Origin: an uncultured Bifidobacteriales bacterium
Lineage (GTDB): Bacteria; Fibrobacterota; Fibrobacteria; UBA11236
DNA: 11,698 bases
NCBI GenBank assembly: GCA_964401245.1
Contig: CAYNXV010000001.1
Span: forward strand, 1 to 11,698
Direction: 5' to 3'
The translations under genes were made by a program, and so were the position numbers. Below are positions 182-11,698 of this stretch, piece after piece. The notes under the pieces were generated by a model. It ran no database searches. It saw only the letters and a list, made by a program, of their open reading frames with translations, and was not told the DNA's origin. The stretch's first letter is position 1. The number at the start of each line of letters is the position of its first letter.

Positions 182-1120
182 CTAGTCCGGATCAACACTC
201 CGAAGATATGTTCTAACCTGGTGCCGGAACTGATCATAGCTCAGTTTAAGACGTTGGGAAGCCTCCTTCTGGTTACCGGAACTTTCCTCCAAAGCTCGAA
301 CCAATAACTGACGTTTGAAAGCCACCACCTGTTCCTCATACCCGCTTTCACTCGGCATGCGCGACCCGGAAATTTCCGGTGGGAGGTCTTCCACCGAAAT
401 GACTTCGTCCAAGGAGTAGCAACAGCACCGTTCCACGACATTTTTCAGTTCCCGGATATTCCCCGGCCAGTGATACTCCTGCAAACGTTTCATAGCGTGA
501 GGACTAAAACTTGCGGCCTCCAGATTTGGAATTTCCTCCTTCAAAACCTTTACGAAATACTCGACCAGGAGAGGGATTTCCTCCCTTCTATTACGAAGTG
601 GGGGCAATTCCAAGGTGGCGAAGGCCAACCTGTCATATAAATCCGCCCTGAAGTCCCCGCTCGATATAAGTGCTTCCAGATCCGCGTTGGTCGCGCTCAC
701 TATGCGTACGTCAACCTTGATGGTCTCGTTGCCCTTCAGTCTTTGAAATTGCTGGTACTCGACTACACGGAGAATTCGTTCCTGGAAGGTCGGGCTCATG
801 TTCCCCACCTCGTCCAAAAAAAGGGTTCCGCCATTTGCCTGTTCCAACTTGCCGGAATACCGACGGTCGGCTCCGGTGAAGGCCCCCTTTTCGTGGCCAT
901 ATATCTCGGCCCCCGACAACTCGTCGTTGAAACCGGCACAATTCAAAGCGACGAAAGTCCTCTCCGCCCTCGGACTCCGGTCATGGAGATTCCGGGCAAT
1001 CAACTCCTTGCCCGTACCCCGCTCACCCCGGATCAAAACGGGCCGGGGAAGGCGGGCCACTCTCTCCAATTGCTGAAGCAGTGTTACCATGGCCGGTGAT
1101 GAGGCGATTCCTGGAAACAT
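182..1120 (-). CDS. pspF: PspF-type sigma54-dependent transcriptional activator (AAA+ enhancer-binding protein without an N-terminal receiver domain, with a C-terminal HTH).
   Basis: 312 aa. Walker A GERGTGKE. GAFTGA sigma54-contact motif in ...EIYGHEKGAFTGA... Walker B TLFLDEV. Conserved LRVVEY, RVGG-like segment, RADLYDRLA, WPGNIRELKNVVER. C-terminal HTH NQKEASQRLKLSYDQFRHQV. The length and the lack of a regulatory N-domain match PspF rather than NtrC. It is divergent from pspA. Confidence 0.88.
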   Translation of the reverse strand: MFPGIASSPAMVTLLQQLERVARLPRPVLIRGERGTGKELIARNLHDRSPRAERTFVALNCAGFNDELSGAEIYGHEKGAFTGADRRYSGKLEQANGGTLFLDEVGNMSPTFQERILRVVEYQQFQRLKGNETIKVDVRIVSATNADLEALISSGDFRADLYDRLAFATLELPPLRNRREEIPLLVEYFVKVLKEEIPNLEAASFSPHAMKRLQEYHWPGNIRELKNVVERCCCYSLDEVISVEDLPPEISGSRMPSESGYEEQVVAFKRQLLVRALEESSGNQKEASQRLKLSYDQFRHQVRTYLRSVDPD

Positions 1121-1192: not shown

Positions 1193-1227
1193 TGGTGATT
1201 TTCACCAATGAGTGGCGTAATTCACCA
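1193..1227. promoter_or_regulatory. Two adjacent 15-bp inverted repeats, putative PspF upstream activating sequences (UAS). The first is the perfect palindrome TGGTGA-TTT-TCACCA (1193-1207). The second is the imperfect TGGCGT-AAT-TCACCA (1213-1227).
   Basis: A perfect 6-3-6 palindrome and a near-copy 20 bp away centre to centre (two helical turns). They lie about 70-85 bp upstream of the sigma54 -24 element, in the pspF/pspA divergent intergenic region. This geometry is typical of enhancer-binding-protein dimer sites. Confidence 0.4.
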
Positions 1228-1277
1228 TCGAAAAATGTTAAGATTTATGTTTTCAAGACGATTTTATGAATTCCGAT

Positions 1278-1292
1278 TGGCACAATAATCGC
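1278..1292 (+). promoter_or_regulatory. sigma54 (RpoN) -24/-12 promoter for the pspA operon.
   Basis: TGGCAC-aataa-TCGC: GG (1279-1280) and GC (1291-1292) are separated by exactly 10 nt, matching TGGCAC-N5-TTGCW. It lies about 45 bp upstream of the pspA ATG and downstream of the palindromes. A divergent sigma54 activator gene sits next to it. Confidence 0.6.
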
Positions 1293-1336
1293 GTTAACCT
1301 CCTTACAAACCTGTACACCCGATAAGGAGGCCGGTC

Positions 1337-2074
1337 ATGGGCATACTCAAGCGTTTAAAGGAAATCATCGAAGGTAATATCCACGAGCAACTGGATAGGG
1401 TAGACGATCCTGAAGCCCGGATCAATCAGATTCTCAGGGACCTCGAAACCGGTTTGGTTGAATTACGACAAACATTGGCCAATGCCATGGCCAACCATCA
1501 TATCAGCCTCCAAAACCGAGATAACCTGGTAAAAGAAGCCCAGGAATGGGACGACCACGCCGCCCGTGCGCTCAAAGCCGGTGACGAACCCCTAGCGCTG
1601 AAAGCCCTGGAAAAAAAACTGTATTACAAAAATAGAATTCATATGGCCGAGGAACAGGTCGCAGATGACGCCGCGCTTGTCGAACAGATAAGAGGTGACC
1701 TGCTCCGGGTGGAGGAGCGATACCACGAAGTCCGAGTCCGCAGAGACACGCTGGTTGCGCGCAATCGCAGTGCCTCCGCTAGAGGACGAGTTTTGGGAGC
1801 CACCGACAAGTTAGAGGGTCGATTACCCGGATTGGGCCATGCCGACGATGCAGTGCGCCGGATGGATGATTTGGAAACAAAGCTGGATCATACCTATGCC
1901 CAATATCAGGCCCGGGTACAATTGGCTACCGAAGGGATTGCGGGCGACGTCGAGCGTCAGGTAAAGGCGCTCAAGGCCAAGGAGGACTTAGACGCTGAAA
2001 TGGCCTCGCTAAAAGCGAGAATTTCGAGAACGGATTCCCAATCCAGTGGCGATACGAGTCCGTACAATGGCTGA
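1337..2074 (+). CDS. pspA: Phage shock protein A (PspA/IM30/Vipp1 family, ESCRT-III-like coiled-coil membrane-stress effector).
   Basis: 245 aa. N-terminus MGILKRLKEIIEGNIHEQLDRVDDPEARINQILRDLETGLVELRQTLA aligns with the E. coli PspA N-terminus ([44 protein letters not shown]). Predicted all coiled coil. AAGGAGG RBS at 1324-1330. Directly downstream of the sigma54 promoter. Confidence 0.88.
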   Translation: MGILKRLKEIIEGNIHEQLDRVDDPEARINQILRDLETGLVELRQTLANAMANHHISLQNRDNLVKEAQEWDDHAARALKAGDEPLALKALEKKLYYKNRIHMAEEQVADDAALVEQIRGDLLRVEERYHEVRVRRDTLVARNRSASARGRVLGATDKLEGRLPGLGHADDAVRRMDDLETKLDHTYAQYQARVQLATEGIAGDVERQVKALKAKEDLDAEMASLKARISRTDSQSSGDTSPYNG

Positions 2075-2107: not shown

Positions 2108-2743
2108 ATGGCGCTAGGGTTTCTTTTACCGGAATGGTTGCGTGAGTTCCTGATTTTTTCGGTCCAAAGGTCTCAGCTACCCTATACCATTATCCTGTTA
2201 TGCCTGCTCGTGTACTGGGTTCTGGTGATTGCCGGGGCTTTCGATATCGAGTTTTTCGGGGTGGATGTCGACGCGGATTTGGAAACACCCGAGGGCCCAT
2301 TCCAATGGCTCCTTTCTCTATTCAACATCGGCGAGCTGCCAGTAATGGTGATCATATCTTTCATGATATTGGGACTTTGGACCACTGCCATGATCACGGG
2401 CATGTTTATGCCGGAAGGAGTATCCTGGCTTTTCCGGCTGGCTTTATTGCCGGCCAATATCATCATCGGAGCGATGCTGGCATTGCCTTTAATAAAGCCG
2501 GTAGCCTGGCTGTTCCGCCAGAACGCGGCATCCCGGGAGATAATCAGGGAGGAAGGAAGCCTGGCAAACCTGCGCTCCTCTCTCGAACCTGGATTTATGG
2601 GCCAGGCGCTGATAAACCGAAGGGGAACCCCCGTGATTCTTAATGTGAAACTGGCGGAGGGAGAAGCATCCCTCAATTCGGGTTCCGAAGTAGTTGTCCT
2701 TGCCAAAGAAGGTGATTTTTACCGCGTCAAAAGGTTCAGCTGA
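2108..2743 (+). CDS. YqiJ-like (DUF1449 / NfeD-type) inner-membrane protein, the usual partner of YqiK flotillin. Multi-pass membrane N-terminal part and C-terminal OB-fold-like soluble domain.
   Basis: 211 aa. Hydrophobic helices (IILLCLLVYWVLVIAGAF; LPVMVIISFMILGLWTTAMITGMF; LALLPANIIIGAMLALPLI). Acidic D-x-D-x-D loop FFGVDVDADLETPEG. C-terminal beta-rich tail (TPVILNVKLAEGEASLNSGSEVVVLAKEGDFYRVKRF). GGAGG RBS at 2098-2102. 33 bp after pspA and immediately before the flotillin gene, the same order as the E. coli yqiJ-yqiK pair. Confidence 0.65.
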   Translation: MALGFLLPEWLREFLIFSVQRSQLPYTIILLCLLVYWVLVIAGAFDIEFFGVDVDADLETPEGPFQWLLSLFNIGELPVMVIISFMILGLWTTAMITGMFMPEGVSWLFRLALLPANIIIGAMLALPLIKPVAWLFRQNAASREIIREEGSLANLRSSLEPGFMGQALINRRGTPVILNVKLAEGEASLNSGSEVVVLAKEGDFYRVKRFS

Positions 2744-2765: not shown

Positions 2766-4862
2766 ATGTTAGATAATTTCATCAACCTCATTGGGGGACT
2801 GGGAGCCGTGCTGGCCATCATCAGCGTTTTGCTGTTCTTCGGCATCATGGCTTTCGTAGTCAAGCTTTTCAAAAAGGTTCCCCAGGGTCAGGCCATTGTC
2901 CGGACCGGTTGGGGTAAGCCTAGAGTCAGTTTTACCGGCATGTTCGTCATACCAGTCCTCCACCGCATGGAAGTCATGGATATAAGCGTCAAAAGGGTTG
3001 ATATAGATAGGATGAAGGAGGATGGGCTGATTTGCCGCGACAACCTTCGAGCGGATATTAAGGTGACCTTTTTCGTCGGAGTTAATAATACCGAGCAGGA
3101 TGTGCTCAAAGTGGCCCAATCCCTGGGGGTTTCCAAGGCGAGCGATCCACAGGCATTGCGCGATTACTTCGATTCCAAGTTCTCGGACGCCCTGAAAACA
3201 GCGGGGAAACAGTTTGACTTCGTTGACCTTTATGAAAAGCGCAATGGTTTTCGCAGCGCCATTCTGGGAGAAATTGGAACCGATCTGAACGGCTACCATC
3301 TCGACGATGCCGCCATCGACTATCTTGAGCAAACCGCCTTGGAGCATTTGAATACCAAAAACATTCTCGATGCCGAGGGAATCAAGAAGATCACGGAATT
3401 GACTGCAGCCCAGAACATCCTGGCGAACAATATTCGCAATGAAGAGAAAAAAGTCATAACCAAACAGGACGTGGAAGCGCGGGAAGCCATCCTGGAACTG
3501 GAAAGGCAATTGGCGGAAGCGGAGGAAAAACAACGTCGCGAGGTTGAATCGGTGAAGGCAAGGGAAGTCGCCGAAACCCGTAAAATCCAGGAGGAGCAAC
3601 GTCTCAAATCCGAAAGAGCTCGCATAACCAGCGACGAGGAAATCGCCATCGCTGAGGAGAACAAGGACAGGCAAATCATTGTCGCCCAAAAGAACAAGGA
3701 ACGTACCGACGCCGTAGAAACTGAAAGAGTGAAGAAGGATCAGGAATTGGAAGCGACGGAGCGAATAAAGGCAGTAAGTCTGGCCGACATCGAAAAGGAC
3801 AAGGCCATCGAAGTGGAAAAGAAGAACATCCAATTCATCATAAAGGAACGGGTGGTGGTGGAAAAGGCCGTAGTGGTCGAAGAGGAGAAAATCAAAGATA
3901 CCCGCGAATGGGCCGAGGCGGATCGTATCAAAAAGGTCGCCATTACCGGAGCCGAACAATTGGCTGAGGAGGCGCTCATAGCCGAAGTGAAGGCTGCCGA
4001 CGCCAAACGCCAATCAGCGGAGCTCTATGCCAAGGAAATCATCATCAAATCGGAAGCCGAAAGGGAAGCTAGCGCGCGCAAGGCCGAGGCTATGAAGCTT
4101 TTGGCCGAAGGACAAGTGGCCGAGGTGGCTGCACCTGGATTGGGCAAGGCCAAGATACAGGAAGCCATGGCCGACGCCCTGCAAAAAGAAGGGACGGCGG
4201 AAGCAACTGTAATAGAACGCAAGGGATTCGCTGCAGCCACGGTCACCGAAAAACAAGGAACCGCAGAAGCTGCGATCATCCAGAAAAAAGGCACCGCTGA
4301 AGCCAACATCATGCACGCCAAGTACCACAGCGAAGCGGAAGGTATCAAGGAAAAGGCCGACGCCATGAAAATACTGGACGCCGTCGGAAAGGATCACGAG
4401 GAGTTCAAGCTCAAGCTCGACAAGGAACTCCAGGTCGATCTGGCGGGCATAGATATGCAGCGTCAACTGGCGGAATCGCAGGCAGAAGTCATACGTGAAG
4501 GCCTCAGAACCGCCCGCATAGACATAGTGGGAGGCGAAAGTACGTTTTTCGAGCAAATCGCCGGGGCCATCACCAAGGGGAAAACCTGGGATCGCATGGT
4601 CGACAATTCCGCTGTGCTCAGAGACGTGAAGGACACCTTCTTCAATGGCGACGGAGAATACTTCAAGTCCCAAATGAAAAAGTTCGTGGAGCAATTCGCT
4701 ATCAGCTCGGACGACGTGAAGAATATGAGCGTGGCAGCCTTGCTTGCCAAGATGGTCCAGCTCGCGGATGACAAAAAGGATCGTACCGCCTTGCAATCCA
4801 TGCTTTCGGTGGCCGACGGGATGGGAATGGGAGGCAAAAAAGGCTTCTCACTGCTGGGATGA
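2766..4862 (+). CDS. yqiK: Flotillin-family SPFH/Band-7 protein (YqiK-like): N-terminal TM anchor, SPFH domain, long E/A/K-rich coiled-coil region with EA repeats.
   Basis: ATG at 2766 preceded by AGGAGA (2752-2757). The track's upstream extension begins with TTG at 2694 and overlaps the yqiJ-like gene, so 2766 is preferred. TM segment LIGGLGAVLAIISVLLFFGIMAFVV. SPFH signature QGQAIVRTGWGKPRVSFTGMFVIPVLHRMEVMDISVKRVDI. About 450 aa of charged alpha-helical sequence and a terminal flotillin-like tail. Confidence 0.85.
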   Translation: MLDNFINLIGGLGAVLAIISVLLFFGIMAFVVKLFKKVPQGQAIVRTGWGKPRVSFTGMFVIPVLHRMEVMDISVKRVDIDRMKEDGLICRDNLRADIKVTFFVGVNNTEQDVLKVAQSLGVSKASDPQALRDYFDSKFSDALKTAGKQFDFVDLYEKRNGFRSAILGEIGTDLNGYHLDDAAIDYLEQTALEHLNTKNILDAEGIKKITELTAAQNILANNIRNEEKKVITKQDVEAREAILELERQLAEAEEKQRREVESVKAREVAETRKIQEEQRLKSERARITSDEEIAIAEENKDRQIIVAQKNKERTDAVETERVKKDQELEATERIKAVSLADIEKDKAIEVEKKNIQFIIKERVVVEKAVVVEEEKIKDTREWAEADRIKKVAITGAEQLAEEALIAEVKAADAKRQSAELYAKEIIIKSEAEREASARKAEAMKLLAEGQVAEVAAPGLGKAKIQEAMADALQKEGTAEATVIERKGFAAATVTEKQGTAEAAIIQKKGTAEANIMHAKYHSEAEGIKEKADAMKILDAVGKDHEEFKLKLDKELQVDLAGIDMQRQLAESQAEVIREGLRTARIDIVGGESTFFEQIAGAITKGKTWDRMVDNSAVLRDVKDTFFNGDGEYFKSQMKKFVEQFAISSDDVKNMSVAALLAKMVQLADDKKDRTALQSMLSVADGMGMGGKKGFSLLG
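4186..4320 (+). repeat. Degenerate tandem 33-nt (11-codon) repeats inside the flotillin CDS, encoding KEGTAEATVIER / KGFAAATVTEK / QGTAEAAIIQK / KGTAEANIMHAK.
   Basis: Four consecutive units with conserved G-T/A-A-E-A core at both nucleotide and protein level. This is typical of flotillin C-terminal EA repeats. Confidence 0.5.
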
Positions 4863-7800
4863 GCGCGGAGACCAAGCAACCCGTAGAAGTCCTCGAACAG
4901 GGCACCTACGAGATTATCCAGGCACGCCTGCGGGAACAGACCGAAAACCTGCGGCAGCGCCTGGATAATCTCAATTCGGCTCGTAAGGAGGTTTTCGGGT
5001 CCATCGAAACGACCTTGCTCGGTAACTCCCGGCTCACCACCGAGTATAATTGCAAGCCACGGGATATGGTTAGCATCGGGTCCCGCTTCCTGTTCGGCTT
5101 CAATATCCATATGGGCCTGAAAAGCGTCACCCGCCCGGAAGACGTGTTTTCCATTTATCGCTACTCGGAACAGGAGTTGCTCCCCGATAGTCTTGACGTC
5201 ATCAATGACCCGAGATTCCAGGAAAATTTTCAGGATCTGTACAAGTACTACAAAGACACCGCCTTTAAGCGCTTTTCTCGCCAAGGACCCTTTCTTTTCA
5301 TGGTGTTCCGGGTCGGCAAAGTTGTATCCGACATCAAGGTCTTCAAATGGCTGGTAGAAGGGGAGAACCTGCGCTACGTGGACAATCGGTCCGAGAGCGA
5401 ATACAGGTACCCGTCTCAGCATGAATTCGAATGGACCCGCACCCACCGGGATCGCCATCGTAGCGGCCGCCATCCTCACGTAAGCATCGAGGATAAGGTC
5501 TTTGTCGAAACCGTCGGGGGTAATCTCACCGTCAAAATCGAGGACAATACCGATGATGGAGAGGGGGTTTTCAGCGAACCCGTGGTCAACGCCGATCAAA
5601 CACTGGACGATGCGGAGATCTTTTACGCCTCTCTGGGAAACCTCATCCTCATGAAAATCCGGCCCTACCTTGAGGAGAAATACCGCTATTTCGTTTTCAG
5701 CCAGAAGACCCGGACCTGCCTCAGAATGGACGGTATCGAAAAGGCCTGCGTACTTTTGCCGGACGACCACGGTATCATCTTCTCCAACGGCTATTTTCTA
5801 CAAAATGGAGAGGCCAAGGTATTCGAAAACCCGGCTGCGGACATGCTTTTCGATCGCCGTGTCGCAAGTCCCAATGGCGAAGATACCTTGTTCGCCTTCC
5901 ATGATCGCCAAACGGGCGCTTATAATTTGTTGAGCTACAATCTCATTGAACAAACGGTCGAAATCCCCATAACCTGTCACGGCTTTACGCTTTTCGAGAA
6001 TGGGGTGATGTTGGTATTCCGCGACTCCGGCGAATCTCAGAAGCACCATATGGTTCAGTTCTGGAGAACGCCTTTCACCGGATCGTCCCATATTCTCACA
6101 TCGGAGGAGACCACTTCGGAGGCCCACCGCTTTCTGCTGAAACTGGGCAACAAGGACGTCGTACGGGCCATGGCCGAATGCAGGGAATTGATTACCCTGG
6201 TGGTGAAAGGCGAATCCTACGCCGACGTCTATGCTGACCTGGTTCGCAAATCCGGAACAATCCTCGACACCTATTTCTGGCTCGGAGACGAAAAGGCCGA
6301 AAACCTTGCGGCTGCGGTTTCCTCCTTACGGGATACGAGTAAACAGGCCTTGGATGAATTCGAAAAAGTCAGACGGGTTCGAATCCATACAACCCAGGAG
6401 ATTCACCGCGTTTCCGAAGTCTGCCGCAAGACTCTGGCCGCCATCGCAGCGACCGCATTTTCCGAAATGCAGGAGTTTGTGGATAATCTGGGAAAACTGC
6501 GCACATTGCGGGGGGAGACAATCACCCTGAAGAATTTGCGATATGCGGACCTACCCCAAATCGAAGGGCTTGAAAAGGAGATTGCGGAGGCGCTGTCCCA
6601 CCTCAGCCGGCGCTGCGTCGAATTCCTCCTGCAGCCCGATTCCCTCGATGGGTACCGTACATCCATTCAGGAGGTGGAATCACAAATCCCCGCCATCGCG
6701 AAGGTTGCCGAAGCCGATGAACTCGATAAGCGGCTTGTGCAAAGCGGATCCGAACTGGAACTCCTTATCGATATCGTCTCCAATCTTAAAATAGACGATA
6801 CTACCCAGAGCACTGAAATTGTCGACCGCATCAGCAGCCTGTTTGCGGAGCTCAACAAGTGCAAGGCTTTGTTGCGCAATCGGCGCCAGCAACTTGCGGG
6901 TGTCGAGGCCGCGGCTGAGTTCAACGTGCAAATGAAGCTGCTTGGCCAATCAGTGGTGAATTTTCTCGACTTGGCCGAAACACCCGAGCGGTGCGATGAA
7001 TCGCTTTCCAAGCTCATGGTGCAGCTGGAAGACCTGGAAGGCAAAGTAGCGGGATTCGACGAGTTTCTAGATGAAATTGGTCGTAAACGGGAAGAAATTT
7101 ACGGGGCCTTCGAAAGCCGCAAGATCCGGATTGTCGAGGATCGCAACCGTCAGGTGCAATCCTTGGAGCGTAGCGCCGAACGTATTCTCAAAAGCGTGGC
7201 AAATAAAGTGTCCCACATGGCCACCCCGGTGGAAATTAATGGGTACTTCGCCTCAGACCTCATGGTGGATAAGGCCCGCAGTCTTATAAAGCAGCTGAGA
7301 ACCCTGGGCGATCAAATCAAAGCCGATGGAATCGAAGCCAAGCTCAAGGCCTTGCAGGAGGAAGGACAACGCCAACTCAAGGATAAGCTCGATTTATACG
7401 AAGAGGGACAGGATGTCATCAAGCTGGGACGACATCGCTTCAGCGTCAATCGACAACCTTTGGAATTGACCACGGTACTCAAAGACGATGAATACTGGTT
7501 CCACCTGGGCGGAACCCGCTATTTCGAAAAAATCGAAGACTCTGCGTTTTTAGCCACCCGGCCGGTTTGGGTGCAAACTCTGGTCAGCGAAAATGACTCC
7601 GTGTACCGCGGAGAATACCTGGCATGGCAATTCCTCAAACAGGCCAGGGCCGGTCGCCTTTCGGGCCCTGACGGCGCACTCCTTTCCTGGGTGGAGGCCA
7701 GCGGATTGCGCGGCGAATTTCTGATGATTGTCCTGCATACCTTTATGGCCGGACGATATTCCGAAGGATACGTGAAAGGCCAACACGATGTGGATGCAGC

Positions 7801-10138
7801 CCGGATTCTTGAAGCCCTGCTTCCAATGGTGGCTTCGGCTGGACTGATGGTCCATACCAGTGCTGCTAGAACTGCCGGGCTTTACTGGTGGCATTTCCGC
7901 TTCGACCCCATAAAGCGTGATTTGATGGAAAATCGCTTGCGGGGCCATGCGGAAATCCTGTCGGTCTTTCCGGATGCTCCGGGCTCGCATGTTTATCGGG
8001 AAGAAATCCAAAAGTATTTGATCCCGGTTCTTGAGGAGGATGCCCTCTTCTTGGAATCCGGGAGTAGCGTCGAATCCCTTAGCACCGAAGCCGCGGGCTT
8101 TATTTTCGATTGGCGGATCTCAAGCGTATTGCGTCCGCCCGTTGACGCTGAAACCGCGGGCCTCTTGGAAGCCTTCGGAGATTCACTTCGCCTGAAAGGT
8201 CGATTGGCCGGATTTGAGAATATGCTCAAAGACCTCTCGGACCATCCCCGCGAAGCATTTTTACTGGCTCGCCATTGGCTTGCCGCAACCGCCGCCTCCC
8301 GCCCGGATAAAACTGGCTGGCAAAGCAGAGTGGATGAGTCCTGCCTCTGGGCTTTACTGGGGGGAATGGAACCCGGGCAGAAATCGGGTGCCTCCATGCA
8401 GGTCGAAGTGATTGGCATGCTGGGTGAACACAAGCAAATCGTAGATGGTCGCTATAATCTCGCTTACGATGATTTCGTGCAAAGATTGCTGGGATTCGAG
8501 AATGAAACCGTTCCCCGTTTTCAGGATTTTGAATCGCTTAGAAAGCAGCTTTCCGACGAAAAATCGGCTTCGTTGCGGCTCGATGAATTCAAACCCAGGG
8601 TTTTGGGCAGCTTCGTACGCAATCGGCTCATCGACAAAGTCTATCTACCCCTGATTGGCGACAACCTCGCCAAACAAATGGGCGTCGTGGGCGACAAACG
8701 CCGTACCGATTTGATGGGATTACTGCTCCTAATCTCCCCGCCCGGATACGGAAAAACCACACTTATGGAATACGTTGCCAGCCGCCTTGGCCTGGTTTTC
8801 ATGAAAATAAACGGTCCTGCCTTGGGGCATGAAGTCACCAGTCTCGATCCTTCACAGGCTCCTAACGCGAGCGCGGCCCAGGAAGTCGACAAACTGAACC
8901 TTGCCCTGGAGATGGGCGACAATGTCATGATTTACCTCGATGACATTCAGCATTGTCATCCCGAGTTTCTGCAGAAATTCATAAGCCTCTGCGATGGACA
9001 GCGGAAAATGGAAGGCCTGTGGCGAGGTAAGACGCGTACTTATGACCTACGCGGTCGCAAAGTCGCGGTGGTAATGGCCGGAAATCCCTATACTGAAATC
9101 GGAGAGACGTTCCGCATCCCGGATATGTTGGCTAATCGTGCGGACACCTATAATCTTGGCGACATCATCGGGGAGAATACAGGGCATTTCGAGCTCAGTT
9201 ATATCGAGAATGCAATGACATCCAACGTAGTTCTCCAGTCTCTGAACAACAAAAGCCGACAGGATCTCTTTCCCATGTTGCAGTTGGCCACAAATGGGAG
9301 TCGCGAGGGTCTGGAGTTCGAAGGTGCCTTCAGTGCGGAGGAGACCCAGGAAATCGTGGGAGTCCTCAAAAAAATGATCAGGGCCCGTGACGTCATTTTA
9401 AAAGTAAACCTCGAATATATCCGTAGTGCATCCCAAAGCGACGCATACAGGAGCGAACCCAGCTTCAAACTCCAGGGATCCTACCGGAACATGAACAAAA
9501 TAGCGGAGAAGATTCTTCCCGTGATGAACGATTCCGAGTTCGAAGCTTTATTGGCTGGGCATTATGAGGGAGAAAGTCAGACACTGACGGCAGGTGCGGA
9601 AGCGAATTTGCTCAAGTTCAAGTCCCTGAATGGCGTCTTGACCAAGGATGAGGCAGTTCGGTGGAAAGAAATATGCGAGTCCTTCAAGGCGCAAAATAAA
9701 GTTAAGCAACTTGGAGGCGACGCCATGGGGGCGATGCTGGGAGAAGTCATGACACTTGGAACCCGCCTGGGTGATATCGGCTCCATTCTGGAAAAAGGCA
9801 TAAATAATACAGGCGAACCTCGCATTCTTCGTCAGGAAATCGATTTGGGATGGGTGGAAAAAAACTACGACATGGGATGGGACACCATCAAGTTTGAAAT
9901 GGGAGATTGGATTGAAAGTCCGGAATTCTGGAAACGAGTTCGTTATTATGTCAGAACCATCCAACCTATTGTCCAGGAACTGGAACCCCTGCGCCGAACC
10001 CTTCTTGAAACCCCTATCGAAAATTGGCCCGCCGGTGAACAGGGCGAAAAATTAGAAGGTTTCAGACAAACCATGAATCGCATCCTTTGGACATATGGTG
10101 GCATGGTCAAGCTGCTGCGAATGGCTGGAAAAAAGTGA
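4859..10138 (+). CDS. Giant (1759 aa) uncharacterised multi-domain protein with one C-proximal MoxR/dynein-type AAA+ ATPase module. Translationally coupled to flotillin.
   Basis: A single uninterrupted 5.28-kb ORF. ATG 4859-4861 overlaps the flotillin stop TGA 4860-4862 (ATGA). N-terminal coiled coil, then a beta-rich region (about aa 60-410), then about 800 aa of alpha-helical sequence. AAA+ motifs: Walker A LISPPGYGKTT (GYGKTT at nt 8744-8761); Walker B VMIYLDDIQ (DD at 8939-8944); NP-type sensor VVMAGNPYTE; arginine-finger-like IPDMLANRAD. An alpha-helical tail of about 280 aa follows. Confidence 0.82.
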   Translation: MSAETKQPVEVLEQGTYEIIQARLREQTENLRQRLDNLNSARKEVFGSIETTLLGNSRLTTEYNCKPRDMVSIGSRFLFGFNIHMGLKSVTRPEDVFSIYRYSEQELLPDSLDVINDPRFQENFQDLYKYYKDTAFKRFSRQGPFLFMVFRVGKVVSDIKVFKWLVEGENLRYVDNRSESEYRYPSQHEFEWTRTHRDRHRSGRHPHVSIEDKVFVETVGGNLTVKIEDNTDDGEGVFSEPVVNADQTLDDAEIFYASLGNLILMKIRPYLEEKYRYFVFSQKTRTCLRMDGIEKACVLLPDDHGIIFSNGYFLQNGEAKVFENPAADMLFDRRVASPNGEDTLFAFHDRQTGAYNLLSYNLIEQTVEIPITCHGFTLFENGVMLVFRDSGESQKHHMVQFWRTPFTGSSHILTSEETTSEAHRFLLKLGNKDVVRAMAECRELITLVVKGESYADVYADLVRKSGTILDTYFWLGDEKAENLAAAVSSLRDTSKQALDEFEKVRRVRIHTTQEIHRVSEVCRKTLAAIAATAFSEMQEFVDNLGKLRTLRGETITLKNLRYADLPQIEGLEKEIAEALSHLSRRCVEFLLQPDSLDGYRTSIQEVESQIPAIAKVAEADELDKRLVQSGSELELLIDIVSNLKIDDTTQSTEIVDRISSLFAELNKCKALLRNRRQQLAGVEAAAEFNVQMKLLGQSVVNFLDLAETPERCDESLSKLMVQLEDLEGKVAGFDEFLDEIGRKREEIYGAFESRKIRIVEDRNRQVQSLERSAERILKSVANKVSHMATPVEINGYFASDLMVDKARSLIKQLRTLGDQIKADGIEAKLKALQEEGQRQLKDKLDLYEEGQDVIKLGRHRFSVNRQPLELTTVLKDDEYWFHLGGTRYFEKIEDSAFLATRPVWVQTLVSENDSVYRGEYLAWQFLKQARAGRLSGPDGALLSWVEASGLRGEFLMIVLHTFMAGRYSEGYVKGQHDVDAARILEALLPMVASAGLMVHTSAARTAGLYWWHFRFDPIKRDLMENRLRGHAEILSVFPDAPGSHVYREEIQKYLIPVLEEDALFLESGSSVESLSTEAAGFIFDWRISSVLRPPVDAETAGLLEAFGDSLRLKGRLAGFENMLKDLSDHPREAFLLARHWLAATAASRPDKTGWQSRVDESCLWALLGGMEPGQKSGASMQVEVIGMLGEHKQIVDGRYNLAYDDFVQRLLGFENETVPRFQDFESLRKQLSDEKSASLRLDEFKPRVLGSFVRNRLIDKVYLPLIGDNLAKQMGVVGDKRRTDLMGLLLLISPPGYGKTTLMEYVASRLGLVFMKINGPALGHEVTSLDPSQAPNASAAQEVDKLNLALEMGDNVMIYLDDIQHCHPEFLQKFISLCDGQRKMEGLWRGKTRTYDLRGRKVAVVMAGNPYTEIGETFRIPDMLANRADTYNLGDIIGENTGHFELSYIENAMTSNVVLQSLNNKSRQDLFPMLQLATNGSREGLEFEGAFSAEETQEIVGVLKKMIRARDVILKVNLEYIRSASQSDAYRSEPSFKLQGSYRNMNKIAEKILPVMNDSEFEALLAGHYEGESQTLTAGAEANLLKFKSLNGVLTKDEAVRWKEICESFKAQNKVKQLGGDAMGAMLGEVMTLGTRLGDIGSILEKGINNTGEPRILRQEIDLGWVEKNYDMGWDTIKFEMGDWIESPEFWKRVRYYVRTIQPIVQELEPLRRTLLETPIENWPAGEQGEKLEGFRQTMNRILWTYGGMVKLLRMAGKK

Positions 10139-10229
10139 CCCTAGTACCCATGAATAAGCGCAATGCCAGAAATGAGCACCCTAAGTACCCGGCTTGGATT
10201 TAGCCATCTCCCTAACGAAAGGAAACACT

Positions 10230-10607
10230 ATGAAATGCGCCAAATGTAAATCCCAAATGGATAAAATCGGTTACATGGGGATCGAAGTGGATAGATGTAA
10301 ATCCTGCTTTGGTATGTGGTTCGACGTGAATGAATTGCAGGATATTCTCAAACTAAAAGGCGGAACGGCCGTGGATATCGGCAATGAGTGGGAATTCAAA
10401 AATTCAAGCCAGATTGAAGATTACAGTTGCCCTGAAGATGGTTTCAAAATGATCAAAATGGTGGATCCAAAGCAAAGCCACGTTTGGTACGAATCATGTG
10501 GGCATTGTAAGGGTATTTTTTTGGATGCCACGGAGTTGAAAAAATTGAATGAAAGAACCCTGGTTTCGCTTTTCAAATCCATTACGGCGCCCGAAAGAAG
10601 AATTTGA
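10230..10607 (+). CDS. Small tandem zinc-ribbon protein (two TFIIB-type / PF13453-like CxxC...CxxC zinc ribbons).
   Basis: ATG at 10230 with AAAGGAAA about 8 nt upstream. The track's longer form from 10194 adds 12 aa lacking an RBS. Repeat 1: CAKCKSQM...VDRCKSCFGMWFDVNEL. Repeat 2: CPEDGFKM...YESCGHCKGIFLDATEL. Both have the zn-ribbon family WFD/FLD...EL motif. Visibly lower GC than the flanking genes. Confidence 0.72.
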   Translation: MKCAKCKSQMDKIGYMGIEVDRCKSCFGMWFDVNELQDILKLKGGTAVDIGNEWEFKNSSQIEDYSCPEDGFKMIKMVDPKQSHVWYESCGHCKGIFLDATELKKLNERTLVSLFKSITAPERRI

Positions 10608-10874
10608 ATATCGAATAGAAGACTACTTGCGAACATTGCAGTTCTAGCGGTTCCGCGAACATTCCCTGCAGAAGGAAGCTTAGATTGACATAGGCCGCAT
10701 TCACGTTCTCCTTTTGGTAAATATGCACTATGTTGCCGGATGCGCCGAAACGCAGGCGTACCGGCCCAAAAGGATCCATTTTCTCGTGGCAGGGGACTGG
10801 CAATGCGAATTCATCCCTTTCCGGATACTTGTTATATTCCTTAGCACTCCAAAACCTCTAGTTCCGGTGTCGCC

Positions 10875-11698
10875 ATGCTCATATTTCGGATCGTATCTCT
10901 ATGCCTGCTTTTCTGCCTCACCCAATCCTTCGCCGAGCCGCCGCGTAACCTTACCTCCGGTGAAATCCATCTCGCCCTCCGCAAGCTCAAGGTCCTGGGC
11001 ACGGTACTCTATGTGGCGGCCCATCCCGACGACGAAAACACCCGCCTTCTTTCGTATTTCGCCGGAGAAAGGCTATTGCGCACCGGATACCTTTCCCTCA
11101 ATCGCGGCGAGGGCGGGCAGAATCTTATCGGCCCGGAATTGGGCACGCTCCTAGGTGTCATCCGGACGCAGGAATTGCTGCGAGCCCGCTCCATCGACGG
11201 GGCGGAACAGTTTTTCACCCGGGCCATCGATTTCGGTTACTCCAAGTCGTCGGAAGAAAGTCTTTCCAAATGGGGGCACGAAGAAATCCTCTCCGATGTG
11301 GTGCGGGTAATCCGGAAATTTCGTCCCGACGTCATCGTAACCCGATTCACTCCCGAAGTGGGTGGGCATGGACACCACCTCGCATCGGCCATGCTGGCGA
11401 AGGAGGCTTTCGTCGCGGCCGCCGATTCGACCCGCTTCACCGATCAGCTTAGGGAGCTTCGACCTTGGCAGGCCCGGCGGGTTTATTGGAATGCATGGCG
11501 ACCGGGGGAGAGAACGGATTCGGCTTCGCTGCTGGGAGGGATTGACGGCGGTATTTTCAATCCCATATTGGGAGAATCTTATTCCGAAATCGCGGCGCGG
11601 AGCCGTAACAGCCATAAGAGCCAGGGATTCGGAACCATTCCCGTGCGAGGGACGGAGCCGGAAAAGTTCCAATATCTCGCGGGCGACAGCGTGTCGGG
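10875..11698 (+). CDS. PIG-L / LmbE-family (GlcNAc-PI de-N-acetylase-like) deacetylase with N-terminal signal peptide. Partial, continues past the window end.
   Basis: My own frame-0 translation: MLIFRIVSLCLLFCLTQSFA|EPP... gives a signal peptide. Zinc-binding signature VAAHPDDE, then LNRGEGG and GGHGHH, all hallmarks of the PIG-L superfamily. The frame is open through nt 11698, which is why the ORF track omits it. The overlapping track ORFs 10714-11154(+) and 11151-11672(-) are low-complexity alternatives. Confidence 0.8.
   Translation, partial: MLIFRIVSLCLLFCLTQSFAEPPRNLTSGEIHLALRKLKVLGTVLYVAAHPDDENTRLLSYFAGERLLRTGYLSLNRGEGGQNLIGPELGTLLGVIRTQELLRARSIDGAEQFFTRAIDFGYSKSSEESLSKWGHEEILSDVVRVIRKFRPDVIVTRFTPEVGGHGHHLASAMLAKEAFVAAADSTRFTDQLRELRPWQARRVYWNAWRPGERTDSASLLGGIDGGIFNPILGESYSEIAARSRNSHKSQGFGTIPVRGTEPEKFQYLAGDSVS

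What the first reader, a model, noticed from the sequence alone, without database searches (positions are those of the whole stretch)
4859..10138. 1759-aa protein of unrecognised architecture: coiled coil, beta-rich domain, long helical scaffold, single MoxR/dynein-type AAA+ module
Apart from the AAA+ block I cannot match this sequence to a family I know. The N-terminal third (about aa 60-410) has repeated amphipathic beta-strand-like segments (FLFGFNIH, FLFMVFRVGKVV, VFVETVGGNLTVKIED, ACVLLPDDHGIIFSNGYFLQNG, TLFAFHDRQTGAYNLLSYNL, GFTLFENGVMLVFRD). These suggest a repeated beta-sandwich or propeller-like array. An 800-aa helical region follows, then one AAA+ domain and a helical tail. A lone AAA+ of the MoxR/dynein/McrB clade inside a protein this large, genetically coupled to flotillin and PspA, looks like a dedicated mechanochemical machine for membrane-associated polymers. 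If it is not already a named family it is a strong candidate for a new PspA/flotillin partner.
Basis: inference. Interest (0 to 1): 0.85.

Follow-up and report, generated by a model that had tools for sequence, protein, structure and literature searches.

The report
Flotillin-operon giant MoxR-type AAA+ ATPase
The 1759-residue protein is real and belongs to a widespread but never experimentally studied bacterial family, wrongly labelled 'DNA repair ATPase'. Its gene almost always follows a flotillin gene and sometimes a PspA gene, so it probably acts on membrane scaffolds, and a 2024 comparative-genomics paper already pointed this link out.

Summary
ORF 4859-10138 (+) encodes 1759 aa with these parts:
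- an N-terminal helix
- a beta-propeller (about aa 52-403)
- about 850 aa of helical bundles, with one small beta domain
- a single AAA+ module (aa 1287-1620)
- a variable helical tail

The claim that it matches no family is wrong. It is a full-length member of Pfam DUF3686 + DUF7902 + AAA, which NCBI names 'DNA repair ATPase'. The family has at least 3789 database proteins, occurs in at least 585 species genomes and spans about 8 phyla.

The flotillin link is strongly conserved. In 74 of 84 loci a YqiK-type flotillin lies directly upstream, usually preceded by a YqiJ/NfeD-like gene. PspA is linked in 22 of 84 loci, mostly Bacteroidota. No DNA-repair or defence context was found.

Ravi et al. 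2024 (mSystems) already described this operon type. In the loci I examined, only this window places it behind a PspF/sigma-54/PspA module.

My best reading is an ATP-dependent remodeller or regulator of cytoplasmic flotillin (and PspA) assemblies. That is inferred, not shown. It is a new member of a known but uncharacterised kind, of moderate interest.

The parts
182..1120 (-). PspF-like sigma-54 activator (AAA+ domain plus Fis-type HTH, no receiver domain), divergent from the operon
   Evidence: Pfam Sigma54_activat E 2.6e-60 and HTH_8. The best NCBIfam hit is phageshock_pspF, TIGR02974, at 342 bits, which is below its equivalog cut-off of 443.
1193..1227 (+). Two similar inverted repeats (TGGTGATTTTCACCA and TGGCGTAATTCACCA); a putative activator (PspF) binding site
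   Evidence: Read directly from the sequence. The first repeat was also picked up as a stem. The function is inferred.
1278..1293 (+). Sigma-54-like -24/-12 element TGGCACAATAATCGCG, 44 nt upstream of pspA
   Evidence: Pattern search. GG and GC have the correct spacing, with 2 mismatches to TGGCAC-N5-TTGCW. Matches of this quality are not rarer than chance across the window, so the argument rests on its position.
1337..2074 (+). PspA/IM30 (bacterial ESCRT-III) gene
   Evidence: Pfam PspA_IM30 E 2.9e-35, covering 1-217 of 220 profile positions. It belongs to an isolated lineage: only 4 relatives exceed 70% identity and the rest are at 30% or less.
2108..2743 (+). YqiJ/YuaF (NfeD-like) membrane protein with a C-terminal OB-type domain
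   Evidence: hhalign of family profile A7 against E. coli YqiJ gives probability 97.3%, E 1.8e-11. The best PDB hit is the YuaF soluble domain 2k14, E 0.18. It is found upstream of the flotillin gene in 60 of 84 loci.
2766..4862 (+). YqiK-type flotillin (TM segment + SPFH domain + long coiled coil + family-specific C-terminal region), 698 aa
   Evidence: hhalign of profile A6 against E. coli YqiK gives probability 100%, E 6.9e-42, over 400 columns. The 698-aa protein is on record. Pfam Band_7 hits only 3 of 33 family members.
4859..10138 (+). The 1759-aa ATPase with DUF3686, DUF7902 and AAA+ domains (the finding itself)
4898..4996 (+). N-terminal long helix (aa 14-46)
   Evidence: AF2 model, DSSP helix H14-46.
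5012..6067 (+). Beta-propeller (aa 52-403, about 29 strands, probably 7 blades); the core of Pfam DUF3686
   Evidence: AF2 model with pLDDT mostly 85-93. Foldseek against PDB hits propellers at probability 1.0. Pfam PF12458 E 4e-183.
6119..7393 (+). Long-helix bundle region (aa 421-845), including DUF7902 (aa 594-678, nt 6638-6892)
7415..7531 (+). Small conserved beta domain (aa 853-891)
   Evidence: AF2 strands E853-891. Conserved motifs such as G857, F861, N864 and G885-T886 are invariant in 25 sequences.
7541..8608 (+). Helical domain preceding the AAA+ module (aa 895-1250)
   Evidence: AF2 models.
8717..9154 (+). AAA+ alpha/beta core (aa 1287-1432). Motifs: Walker A SPPGYGKTT (aa 1293-1301, nt 8735-8761); Walker B MIYLDDIQH (aa 1357-1365, nt 8927-8953); pre-sensor-1 beta-hairpin (aa 1383-1396); sensor-1 N1409; R1427.
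9155..9718 (+). AAA+ lid and helical extension (aa 1433-1620), with a sensor-2-like arginine in LQGSYR (R1543)
   Evidence: AF2 model with pLDDT 84-97. R1543 is invariant.
9719..10135 (+). Poorly conserved helical C-terminal tail (aa 1621-1759)
   Evidence: Low conservation in A1 and A4. pLDDT 39-76.
10194..10607 (+). Small protein with two TFIIB-type zinc ribbons, possibly the last gene of the operon; not conserved elsewhere
   Evidence: Pfam Zn_ribbon_TFIIB E 2.4e-20 with 2 stretches. It is the only member with this domain among 89 neighbouring ORFs.

Best explanation
The protein is a cytoplasmic, MoxR-class AAA+ ATPase. Its N-terminal beta-propeller and about 850 aa of helical bundles probably act as built-in adaptor arms.

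I propose that it works with the two proteins encoded just upstream, a YqiK-type flotillin and a YqiJ/NfeD-like membrane protein, as one three-part module. The proposed steps are:
1. The AAA+ domains oligomerise, presumably into a hexamer as in NorQ and CbbQ.
2. The propeller and helical arms dock on the cytoplasmic flotillin assembly.
3. ATP binding and hydrolysis control the assembly, disassembly or turnover of that scaffold.
4. In lineages where pspA is in the operon, the same activity also acts on the PspA (ESCRT-III) polymer recruited to the scaffold.

In this window the whole module sits behind a PspF/sigma-54 control region, so it would be induced by envelope stress.

What is shown: family membership, domain architecture, the MoxR-like fold, intact nucleotide-binding motifs with an unusual DD Walker B, and conserved gene linkage.

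What is inferred: oligomeric state, physical interaction with flotillin or PspA, the direction of remodelling, and stress induction.
For: **Gene linkage**
- A flotillin-like gene lies directly upstream on the same strand in 74 of 84 related loci. Most of the 10 exceptions are contigs cut off upstream. Three loci (L024, L039, L067) have enough upstream sequence and still lack it.
- The YqiJ-like gene precedes the flotillin gene in 60 of 84 loci.
- The three-gene unit is seen in Planctomycetota, Bacteroidota, Acidobacteriota, Desulfobacterota, Verrucomicrobiota, Kiritimatiellota, Omnitrophota and Clostridia.
- In the window the start and stop codons overlap (ATGA at 4859-4862).

**Identity of the neighbours**
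- The flotillin-like family matches E. coli YqiK at hhalign E 6.9e-42.
- The membrane protein family matches E. coli YqiJ at E 1.8e-11.

**PspA link**
- PspA is the only recurrent extra neighbour. Pfam finds it in 19 of 56 genes upstream of the YqiJ-like gene, and an iterated HMM finds it within 10 kb in 22 of 84 loci.
- It occurs in different positions: upstream in Bacteroidota and Kiritimatiellota, and directly downstream of the ATPase in L029.
- It comes from different PspA lineages. The window's PspA is only 20-24% identical to the Bacteroidota ones. This argues for repeated recruitment.

**The ATPase looks functional**
- The fold is MoxR-like.
- Walker A, sensor 1, R1427 and R1543 are invariant in 25, 62 and 32 sequences and in 18 distant homologues.

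**Architecture is constant**
- The N-terminal domain occurs essentially only in proteins of about 1550-1930 aa. There are 716 clusters at 50% identity.

**Literature**
- An SPFH protein is required to localise PspA in B. subtilis (PMC8581546).
- Ravi et al. 2024 made the same contextual prediction.

**Regulation in the window**
- A PspF-like activator, two inverted repeats and a -24/-12-like element lie upstream of pspA.
Against: - There is no experimental or structural evidence for any contact between the ATPase and flotillin, YqiJ or PspA.
- MoxR ATPases normally work with a VWA-domain partner, and none is present here.
- The Walker B glutamate is replaced by aspartate in every member (DDIQH). 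This may mean slow hydrolysis and switch-like behaviour rather than processive remodelling.
- Three loci with enough upstream sequence lack the flotillin gene (L024, L039, L067).
- E. coli yqiJK has no such ATPase downstream, so flotillins of this type can work without it.
- The sigma-54 element has two mismatches, and matches of that quality are not rarer than chance in the window (8 found, 5.1 expected).
- The relative arrangement of the domains in the model is uncertain (pTM 0.48).
Confidence: 0.5

Rival explanations
1. The ATPase's main substrate is the PspA (ESCRT-III) polymer. It would be a bacterial functional analogue of Vps4, and flotillin would only be the membrane platform.
For: - pspA is in the same operon here and in 22 of 84 related loci, in more than one arrangement.
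- A 2025 review states that a Vps4-like ATPase appears to be absent in bacteria, so PspA polymer regulation is an open question (PMC7619361).
- PspA could be encoded elsewhere in the genomes that lack it at this locus.
Against: - About three quarters of the loci have no PspA within 10 kb, whereas flotillin is nearly always present.
- No MIT domain or other known ESCRT-III-binding domain was detected.
Confidence: 0.2
2. It is mainly a structural, nucleotide-switched scaffold. The propeller plus long helical arms would build or tether a sub-membrane lattice, in a coat-like or dynein-stalk-like way. The DD Walker B would make ATP a slow timer rather than a fuel for unfolding.
For: - The invariant DDIQH Walker B lacks the catalytic glutamate. 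From my memory, DnaA also has DD at this position and hydrolyses slowly.
- A propeller followed by long helical bundles resembles the order of domains in clathrin, IFT-A and Elp1, which are among the Foldseek hits.
- About 850 aa of helical bundles with spectrin-repeat-like matches.
Against: - The Foldseek hits beyond the propeller have TM-scores of about 0.1 and large rmsd, so they are not evidence of homology.
- All the other catalytic elements (sensor 1, arginine finger candidate, sensor 2) are invariant. That is more typical of an active enzyme.
Confidence: 0.2
3. It is a DNA-repair ATPase, as the Pfam and NCBI names say.
For: - Only the database name 'ATPase involved in DNA repair'.
- Weak P-loop matches to RuvB (E 1e-4 to 1e-3).
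- A weak coiled-coil match to the SMC-like LmuB (E 0.001).
- One close homologue sits next to a convergent UvrD-type helicase gene.
Against: - No DNA-binding or nuclease domain was found.
- The RuvB matches cover only about 50 residues around the P-loop.
- No recurrent DNA-repair neighbour appears in 84 loci.
- The conserved neighbours are membrane proteins.
- No paper in the searched library mentions DUF3686 or PF12458.
Confidence: 0.03
4. The three-gene module is an anti-phage or other conflict system that senses or causes membrane damage.
For: - Large AAA+/NTPase proteins with repeat domains are common in defence systems.
- PspA has been linked to phage stress.
- One homologous locus has a toxin-antitoxin pair nearby.
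Against: - There is no meaningful PADLOC match for any of the seven window proteins.
- The flanking genes in the loci I looked at are ordinary housekeeping genes.
- Members from distant phyla are about 50% identical over the full length. In my judgement that fits a conserved cellular function better than an arms race.
Confidence: 0.05

Closest known systems
Pfam DUF3686 (PF12458) + DUF7902 (PF25472) + AAA proteins, annotated by NCBI as 'DNA repair ATPase' or 'AAA family ATPase'; this is the 'beta-propeller + coiled-coil + AAA-ATPase' of the PspA/flotillin operons in Ravi et al. 2024
   Same: - Full-length matches to both Pfam models.
- About 50% identity over 93-100% of the length to hundreds of members.
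- The same YqiJ-flotillin-ATPase gene order.
- The same invariant motifs.
   Different: - The nearest relative is only 54% identical.
- Among the related loci I examined (84 scanned systematically, plus L086 and L087), only the window has a PspF-like activator beside the operon together with a PspA. The one other sigma-54 activator hit, in L001, lies about 7.5 kb downstream of the ATPase gene.
- The published example (Dokdonia) uses a CesT/Tir-PspA pair instead.
MoxR-family AAA+ ATPases (NorQ, CbbQ, RavA)
   Same: - A pre-sensor-1 beta-hairpin, an NP(Y)TE sensor-1 motif and a sensor-2 arginine.
- Pfam AAA_5 is matched above its cut-off.
   Different: - About 13-14% sequence identity.
- Six times larger, with a propeller and helical arms fused in the same chain.
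- No VWA or MIDAS partner gene.
- Walker B is DD, not DE.
- No beta-hairpin is modelled at the helix-2 insert position.
HflK/C-FtsH, and SPFH-NfeD pairs in general (an SPFH cage working with an AAA+ machine or an NfeD partner)
   Same: An SPFH/flotillin protein and an NfeD-like protein are encoded together with an AAA+ ATPase. This suggests a scaffold-plus-motor logic. That part rests on my own knowledge of these systems.
   Different: - The ATPase has no protease domain and no membrane anchor detected.
- It is MoxR-like, not of the FtsH (classical) clade.
- YqiK-type flotillins face the cytoplasm, according to my knowledge of the literature; I did not test this here.
Vps4 with ESCRT-III
   Same: An AAA+ ATPase is genetically linked to an ESCRT-III-superfamily protein (PspA) in this window and in about a quarter of related loci.
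   Different: - No MIT domain.
- The link to PspA is facultative.

Membership tests
DUF3686/DUF7902 'DNA repair ATPase' family | Match to PF12458 over its full length, above the gathering score | tested here: met
   609.3 bits against a cut-off of 25; profile positions 2-448 of 448; aa 31-473.
DUF3686/DUF7902 'DNA repair ATPase' family | PF25472 (DUF7902) in the helical region, and one C-terminal AAA domain, in a protein of about 1600-1900 aa | tested here: met
   PF25472 scores 92.6 bits against a cut-off of 26. PF00004 scores 30.6 against 21.2. Homologues have the same set of Pfam domains. Lengths of full-length members are 1550-1930 aa.
DUF3686/DUF7902 'DNA repair ATPase' family | Family-invariant AAA+ motifs: SPPGYGKT, DDIQH, AGNPYT, PDML-NR and LQGSYR | tested here: met
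   All are present in the window protein. They are invariant in the alignments and in 18 distant members.
DUF3686/DUF7902 'DNA repair ATPase' family | The gene lies downstream of YqiJ-like and YqiK-like flotillin genes | tested here: met
   Window genes at 2108-2743 and 2766-4862. The same is seen in 74 of 84 loci for flotillin and 60 of 84 for YqiJ-like.
MoxR-class AAA+ | The AAA+ fold is closest to solved MoxR members | tested here: met
   [not shown]
MoxR-class AAA+ | Pre-sensor-1 beta-hairpin | tested here: met
   The model has two strands at aa 1383-1388 and 1391-1396, between helix 3 and strand 4. This is a prediction, not a solved structure.
MoxR-class AAA+ | Helix-2 insert in the form of a beta-hairpin | tested here: inconclusive
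   A conserved insert of about 18 residues (aa 1319-1336) is present at that position, but it is modelled as a loop with a short helix.
MoxR-class AAA+ | Canonical Walker B, hhhhDE | tested here: not met
   The motif is YLDDIQH, with D1361 and D1362 invariant across the family.
MoxR-class AAA+ | A partner protein with a VWA/MIDAS domain encoded nearby | tested here: not met
   No VWA domain was found in any window ORF. None appears among the families listed for the upstream, in-between or downstream genes of related loci (first 25 families shown).
MoxR-class AAA+ | Sequence-profile membership (Pfam AAA_3/MoxR or AAA_5) | tested here: inconclusive
   AAA_5 scores 27.3 bits against a cut-off of 22, but PF00004 scores slightly higher at 30.6. 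There is no hit to the MoxR-specific model.
Vps4 / classical AAA clade | An N-terminal MIT domain, and a fold closest to the classical clade | tested here: not met
   [not shown]
DNA-repair ATPases (RuvB, SMC/Rad50-like) | A DNA-binding or nuclease domain, or a repair gene context; for RuvB, a full-length match | tested here: not met
   RuvB models score 20-21 bits against cut-offs of 282-299, and only over aa 1276-1324. No repair genes recur nearby.
Classical Psp system (for the surrounding operon) | PspF + PspA together with PspB and PspC | tested here: not met
   PspF-like and PspA genes are present, but both score below the NCBIfam equivalog cut-offs. No PspB or PspC domain was found in any window ORF.
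Known anti-phage defence systems | A match to a PADLOC model | tested here: not met
   Only marginal hits of E 0.001-0.009, to a coiled-coil region or the P-loop.

The most novel reading that the evidence does not exclude
This family is the missing ATP-driven remodeller of bacterial membrane scaffolds. It would be a MoxR-derived machine that assembles or dismantles cytoplasmic flotillin cages and, where PspA is linked, ESCRT-III-like PspA polymers. It would then be the bacterial functional counterpart of Vps4, or of FtsH inside HflK/C cages, and here it would be wired directly into a PspF/sigma-54 stress circuit.
Probability: 0.35. Interest if true: 0.8.

Novelty: new member of a known kind. 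Interest (0 to 1): 0.45.

Why it matters
- **Open questions.** How bacterial flotillin assemblies and PspA polymers are taken apart or regulated is not known. A 2025 review notes that a Vps4-like ATPase appears to be absent in bacteria (PMC7619361).
- **A concrete candidate.** This family is large (at least 585 species genomes across about 8 phyla) and completely unstudied by experiment. It is almost always encoded right behind a flotillin gene.
- **A misleading name.** The database label 'DNA repair ATPase' has no support in the sequence or the gene context, and it steers annotation the wrong way.
- **A useful natural variant.** In this window the module sits behind a PspF/sigma-54/PspA unit. 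That gives a direct handle to test whether the module is part of the envelope-stress response.
- **Limit on novelty.** The association itself is already published as a comparative-genomics prediction.

Tried and rejected
- **Internal repeats in the beta region.** An hhalign self-comparison found none. I could not get the blade number from sequence or from coordinates, so it is estimated from the strand count.
- **Permissive Pfam scans of sub-regions.** Nothing appeared beyond DUF3686 and DUF7902.
- **PADLOC.** Nothing meaningful.
- **Literature.** Searches for 'DUF3686' and 'PF12458' returned no papers. 'YqiK' with 'AAA+' gave nothing relevant.
- **Source of the window.** An exact look-up of the window protein's contig failed.
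- **Other conserved neighbours.** Genes downstream of the ATPase, and genes between the flotillin and ATPase genes, are not conserved. The most frequent are DUF4178 (4 of 89) and DUF3592 (3 of 89).
- **RNA genes.** Rfam and tRNA scans of the window found nothing.
- **Flotillin C-terminus.** BLASTP of the flotillin C-terminal 179 aa against E. coli YqiK found no similarity. I take this only as a hint that the tail is family-specific.
Full report
**1. The observation**

The ORF at 4859..10138 (+) exists as described: ATG start, 1759 codons. Its start overlaps the stop of the preceding gene (ATGA at 4859-4862). It is a real gene. The identical protein is in the public collection (P0001). A database search returned at least 3789 homologues at E<=1e-5. 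The best 120 are all full length and about 50% identical.

**2. Family**

In fact Pfam DUF3686 ('ATPase involved in DNA repair', PF12458) matches aa 31-473 end to end (E 4.4e-183). DUF7902 (PF25472) matches aa 594-678 (E 1.8e-26). AAA (PF00004) and AAA_5 match aa 1289-1419 weakly but above their cut-offs.

NCBI names homologues 'DNA repair ATPase' or 'AAA family ATPase'. A search with the N-terminal 480 aa alone against 1.84 billion cluster representatives found 716 clusters at E<=1e-3 and 251 at E<=1e-30. The complete members are nearly all 1550-1930 aa long. So the N-terminal domain is confined to this one architecture.

They come from Bacteroidota, Planctomycetota, Verrucomicrobiota, Desulfobacterota, Kiritimatiellota, Omnitrophota and Clostridia. 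Acidobacteriota is added. The window protein is a divergent member, because its closest relative is 54% identical.

**3. Architecture**

I predicted two AlphaFold2 models from alignments of 62 sequences. The first covers aa 1-1200 (pLDDT 84.2, pTM 0.48). The second covers aa 1150-1759 (pLDDT 79.3). Together they give this layout:

| Region (aa) | Feature |
|---|---|
| 14-46 | long helix |
| 52-403 | about 29 beta-strands |
| 421-845 | helices of up to 58 residues |
| 853-891 | small beta domain |
| 895-1166 | helical domain |
| 1287-1432 | AAA+ alpha/beta core |
| to about 1620 | helical lid and extension |
| 1621-1759 | poorly conserved helical tail |

**4. The AAA+ module**

These motifs are invariant in alignments of 25, 62 and 32 sequences and in 18 distant members found through the N-terminal domain alone:
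- Walker A: SPPGYGKTT (K1299)
- Walker B: YLDDIQH (D1361, D1362)
- sensor 1: N1409 in AGNPYTE
- R1427 in PDMLANRAD
- R1543 in LQGSYR

The Walker B therefore reads DD instead of the usual DE in the whole family. From memory, DnaA has the same 'DDIQ' motif and hydrolyses ATP slowly. So this may be a slow or switch-like ATPase, but that is an inference. There is one AAA+ module only. No VWA partner, which is typical for MoxR proteins, is encoded nearby.

**5. Neighbours in the window**

- 182-1120 (-): a PspF-like sigma-54 activator without a receiver domain.
- 1337-2074 (+): PspA/IM30 (E 2.9e-35).
- 2108-2743 (+): a 211-aa membrane protein.
- 2766-4862 (+): a 698-aa protein.

The last two have no Pfam hit. 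Profiles built from their homologues in related loci match E. coli proteins. The 698-aa family matches YqiK, a flotillin-family protein, at probability 100%, E 6.9e-42. The 211-aa family matches YqiJ at probability 97%, E 1.8e-11. The best PDB hit of the YqiJ-like profile is the YuaF soluble domain. Pfam Band_7 hits only 3 of 33 family members.

Between pspF and pspA lie two similar inverted repeats (1193-1227) and a -24/-12-like element, TGGCACAATAATCGCG (1278-1293). This suggests PspF/sigma-54 control of the operon. The promoter match is statistically weak.

**6. Is the linkage conserved?**

I compared 84 related loci: 80 from the genome scan and 4 from contig look-ups.
- A flotillin-like gene lies directly upstream of the ATPase gene on the same strand in 74 loci.
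- A YqiJ-like gene lies upstream of that in 60 loci.
- Most loci without the flotillin gene are contigs cut off upstream. Three (L024, L039, L067) are real exceptions.

Contig look-ups in Desulfonema, Gimesia, Pontibacter and Sulfidibacter, and for the closest homologue, show the same three genes among otherwise unrelated neighbours.

PspA is the only recurrent additional neighbour. Pfam finds it in 19 of 56 genes directly upstream of the YqiJ-like gene. An iterated HMM finds it within 10 kb in 22 of 84 loci. Twenty of these are Bacteroidota. The others are a Kiritimatiellota locus and a Phycisphaerae locus in which pspA lies directly downstream of the ATPase gene.

The window's PspA is only 20-24% identical to the Bacteroidota ones, and it has few close relatives anywhere. 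So PspA seems to have been recruited to the module more than once. Among the 84 scanned loci, none has a PspF-like gene beside the operon together with a PspA. The one other sigma-54 activator hit, in L001, lies about 7.5 kb downstream of the ATPase gene. Genes downstream of the ATPase, and genes between the flotillin and ATPase genes, are not conserved. E. coli yqiJK has no such ATPase.

**7. What is already known**

No paper in the searched library mentions DUF3686 or PF12458. However, Ravi et al. 2024 (mSystems, PMC11237479; preprint 2020) describe operons that combine:
- CesT/Tir-PspA
[quoted passage not shown] - a YqiJ/YuaF-type protein

They note that shorter operons without PspA are widespread. 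Their Table S3 gives a Dokdonia example. So the family, its architecture and its contextual link to flotillin and PspA are already in the literature as predictions. I found no experimental work.

Two related facts are useful. An SPFH protein (YdjI) is required to bring PspA to the membrane in B. subtilis (PMC8581546). A 2025 review states that a Vps4-like ATPase appears to be absent in bacteria (PMC7619361).

**8. Most likely mechanism**

The strongest and most widely conserved signal is the three-gene unit of YqiJ-like, flotillin and ATPase genes. I therefore think the protein acts on, or together with, the cytoplasmic flotillin assembly. The MoxR-like domains would oligomerise. The propeller and helical arms would take the adaptor role that VWA partners play for other MoxR proteins. 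Nucleotide binding and hydrolysis would regulate the assembly, disassembly or turnover of the scaffold. Where PspA has joined the operon, the same activity would extend to, or be coordinated with, the ESCRT-III-like polymer. In this window, PspF/sigma-54 control would make the whole module stress-inducible. I put this at about 0.5.

The rivals are:
- a PspA-centred, Vps4-like role (0.2; PspA is missing at three quarters of the loci)
- a mainly structural, nucleotide-switched scaffold (0.2; based on the DD Walker B and the long arms)
- DNA repair (0.03; supported only by the name)
- a defence system (0.05; no PADLOC match)

**9. Verdict**

The flotillin link is real and strong, the PspA link is partial, and the claim of novelty fails. 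This is a divergent new member of a known but experimentally uncharacterised family, in an operon arrangement (a PspF/sigma-54/PspA unit in front of the three-gene unit) that I did not see elsewhere. Interest is moderate. The biological question is open and testable, but the lead is already published.

Noticed in passing
window 1193-1293: The pspF-pspA intergenic region holds two similar inverted repeats (TGGTGATTTTCACCA and TGGCGTAATTCACCA). A -24/-12-like element, TGGCACAATAATCGCG, lies 44 nt before pspA. Together they look like an activator-binding site plus a sigma-54 promoter for the whole operon.
   Followed up: partly
window 2766-4862 and alignment A6: This flotillin subfamily is invisible to Pfam Band_7 (3 of 33 members hit; the window protein gives no hit). 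It nevertheless matches E. coli YqiK at hhalign E 6.9e-42. Its conserved C-terminal 179 aa or so shows no BLASTP similarity to YqiK, so it could be a family-specific docking region.
   Followed up: partly
window 10194-10607: A small protein with two TFIIB-type zinc ribbons is encoded directly after the ATPase gene on the same strand. None of the 62 downstream ORFs from the related loci that I scanned had this domain. The next terminator-like hairpin on the + strand after the ATPase gene is at 11186-11205.
   Followed up: partly
window 10714-11698: ORFs of 146 aa (+) and 173 aa (-) have no hit in Pfam, NCBIfam or PADLOC. The 146-aa ORF has a Ser/Pro/Arg-rich composition that looks non-coding. 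GC content rises from about 0.47 to 0.54 across this stretch.
   Followed up: no
L029 6757-7476: In an Anaerohalosphaeraceae (Planctomycetota) contig the pspA gene lies directly downstream of the ATPase gene and overlaps its end, instead of lying upstream of the YqiJ-like gene. This is a second, independent arrangement of the same link.
   Followed up: partly
L003 7147-7875; L007, L026, L058, L079 between the flotillin and ATPase genes: Many Bacteroidota loci carry 0.5-2.3 kb of extra small genes between the flotillin and ATPase genes. One example is a PH_40-domain protein in Pontibacter. DUF4178 occurs in 4, and DUF3592 in 3, of the 89 in-between and downstream ORFs.
   Followed up: partly
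whole family (Pfam PF12458; NCBI product names): The name 'ATPase involved in DNA repair' or 'DNA repair ATPase' has no support in domain content or gene context. It appears to be a misnomer that has spread through annotation.
   Followed up: yes
P0074: One full-length homologue (1711 aa, 51% identity) comes from a eukaryotic proteome set (eukprot g33011.t1). It is probably bacterial contamination of that data set.
   Followed up: no
L086 15123-17093 and L087 8107-10050: In the closest homologue's contigs, a convergent UvrD-type helicase gene fused to an acyltransferase domain lies directly after the ATPase gene. This was seen only in that lineage.
   Followed up: no
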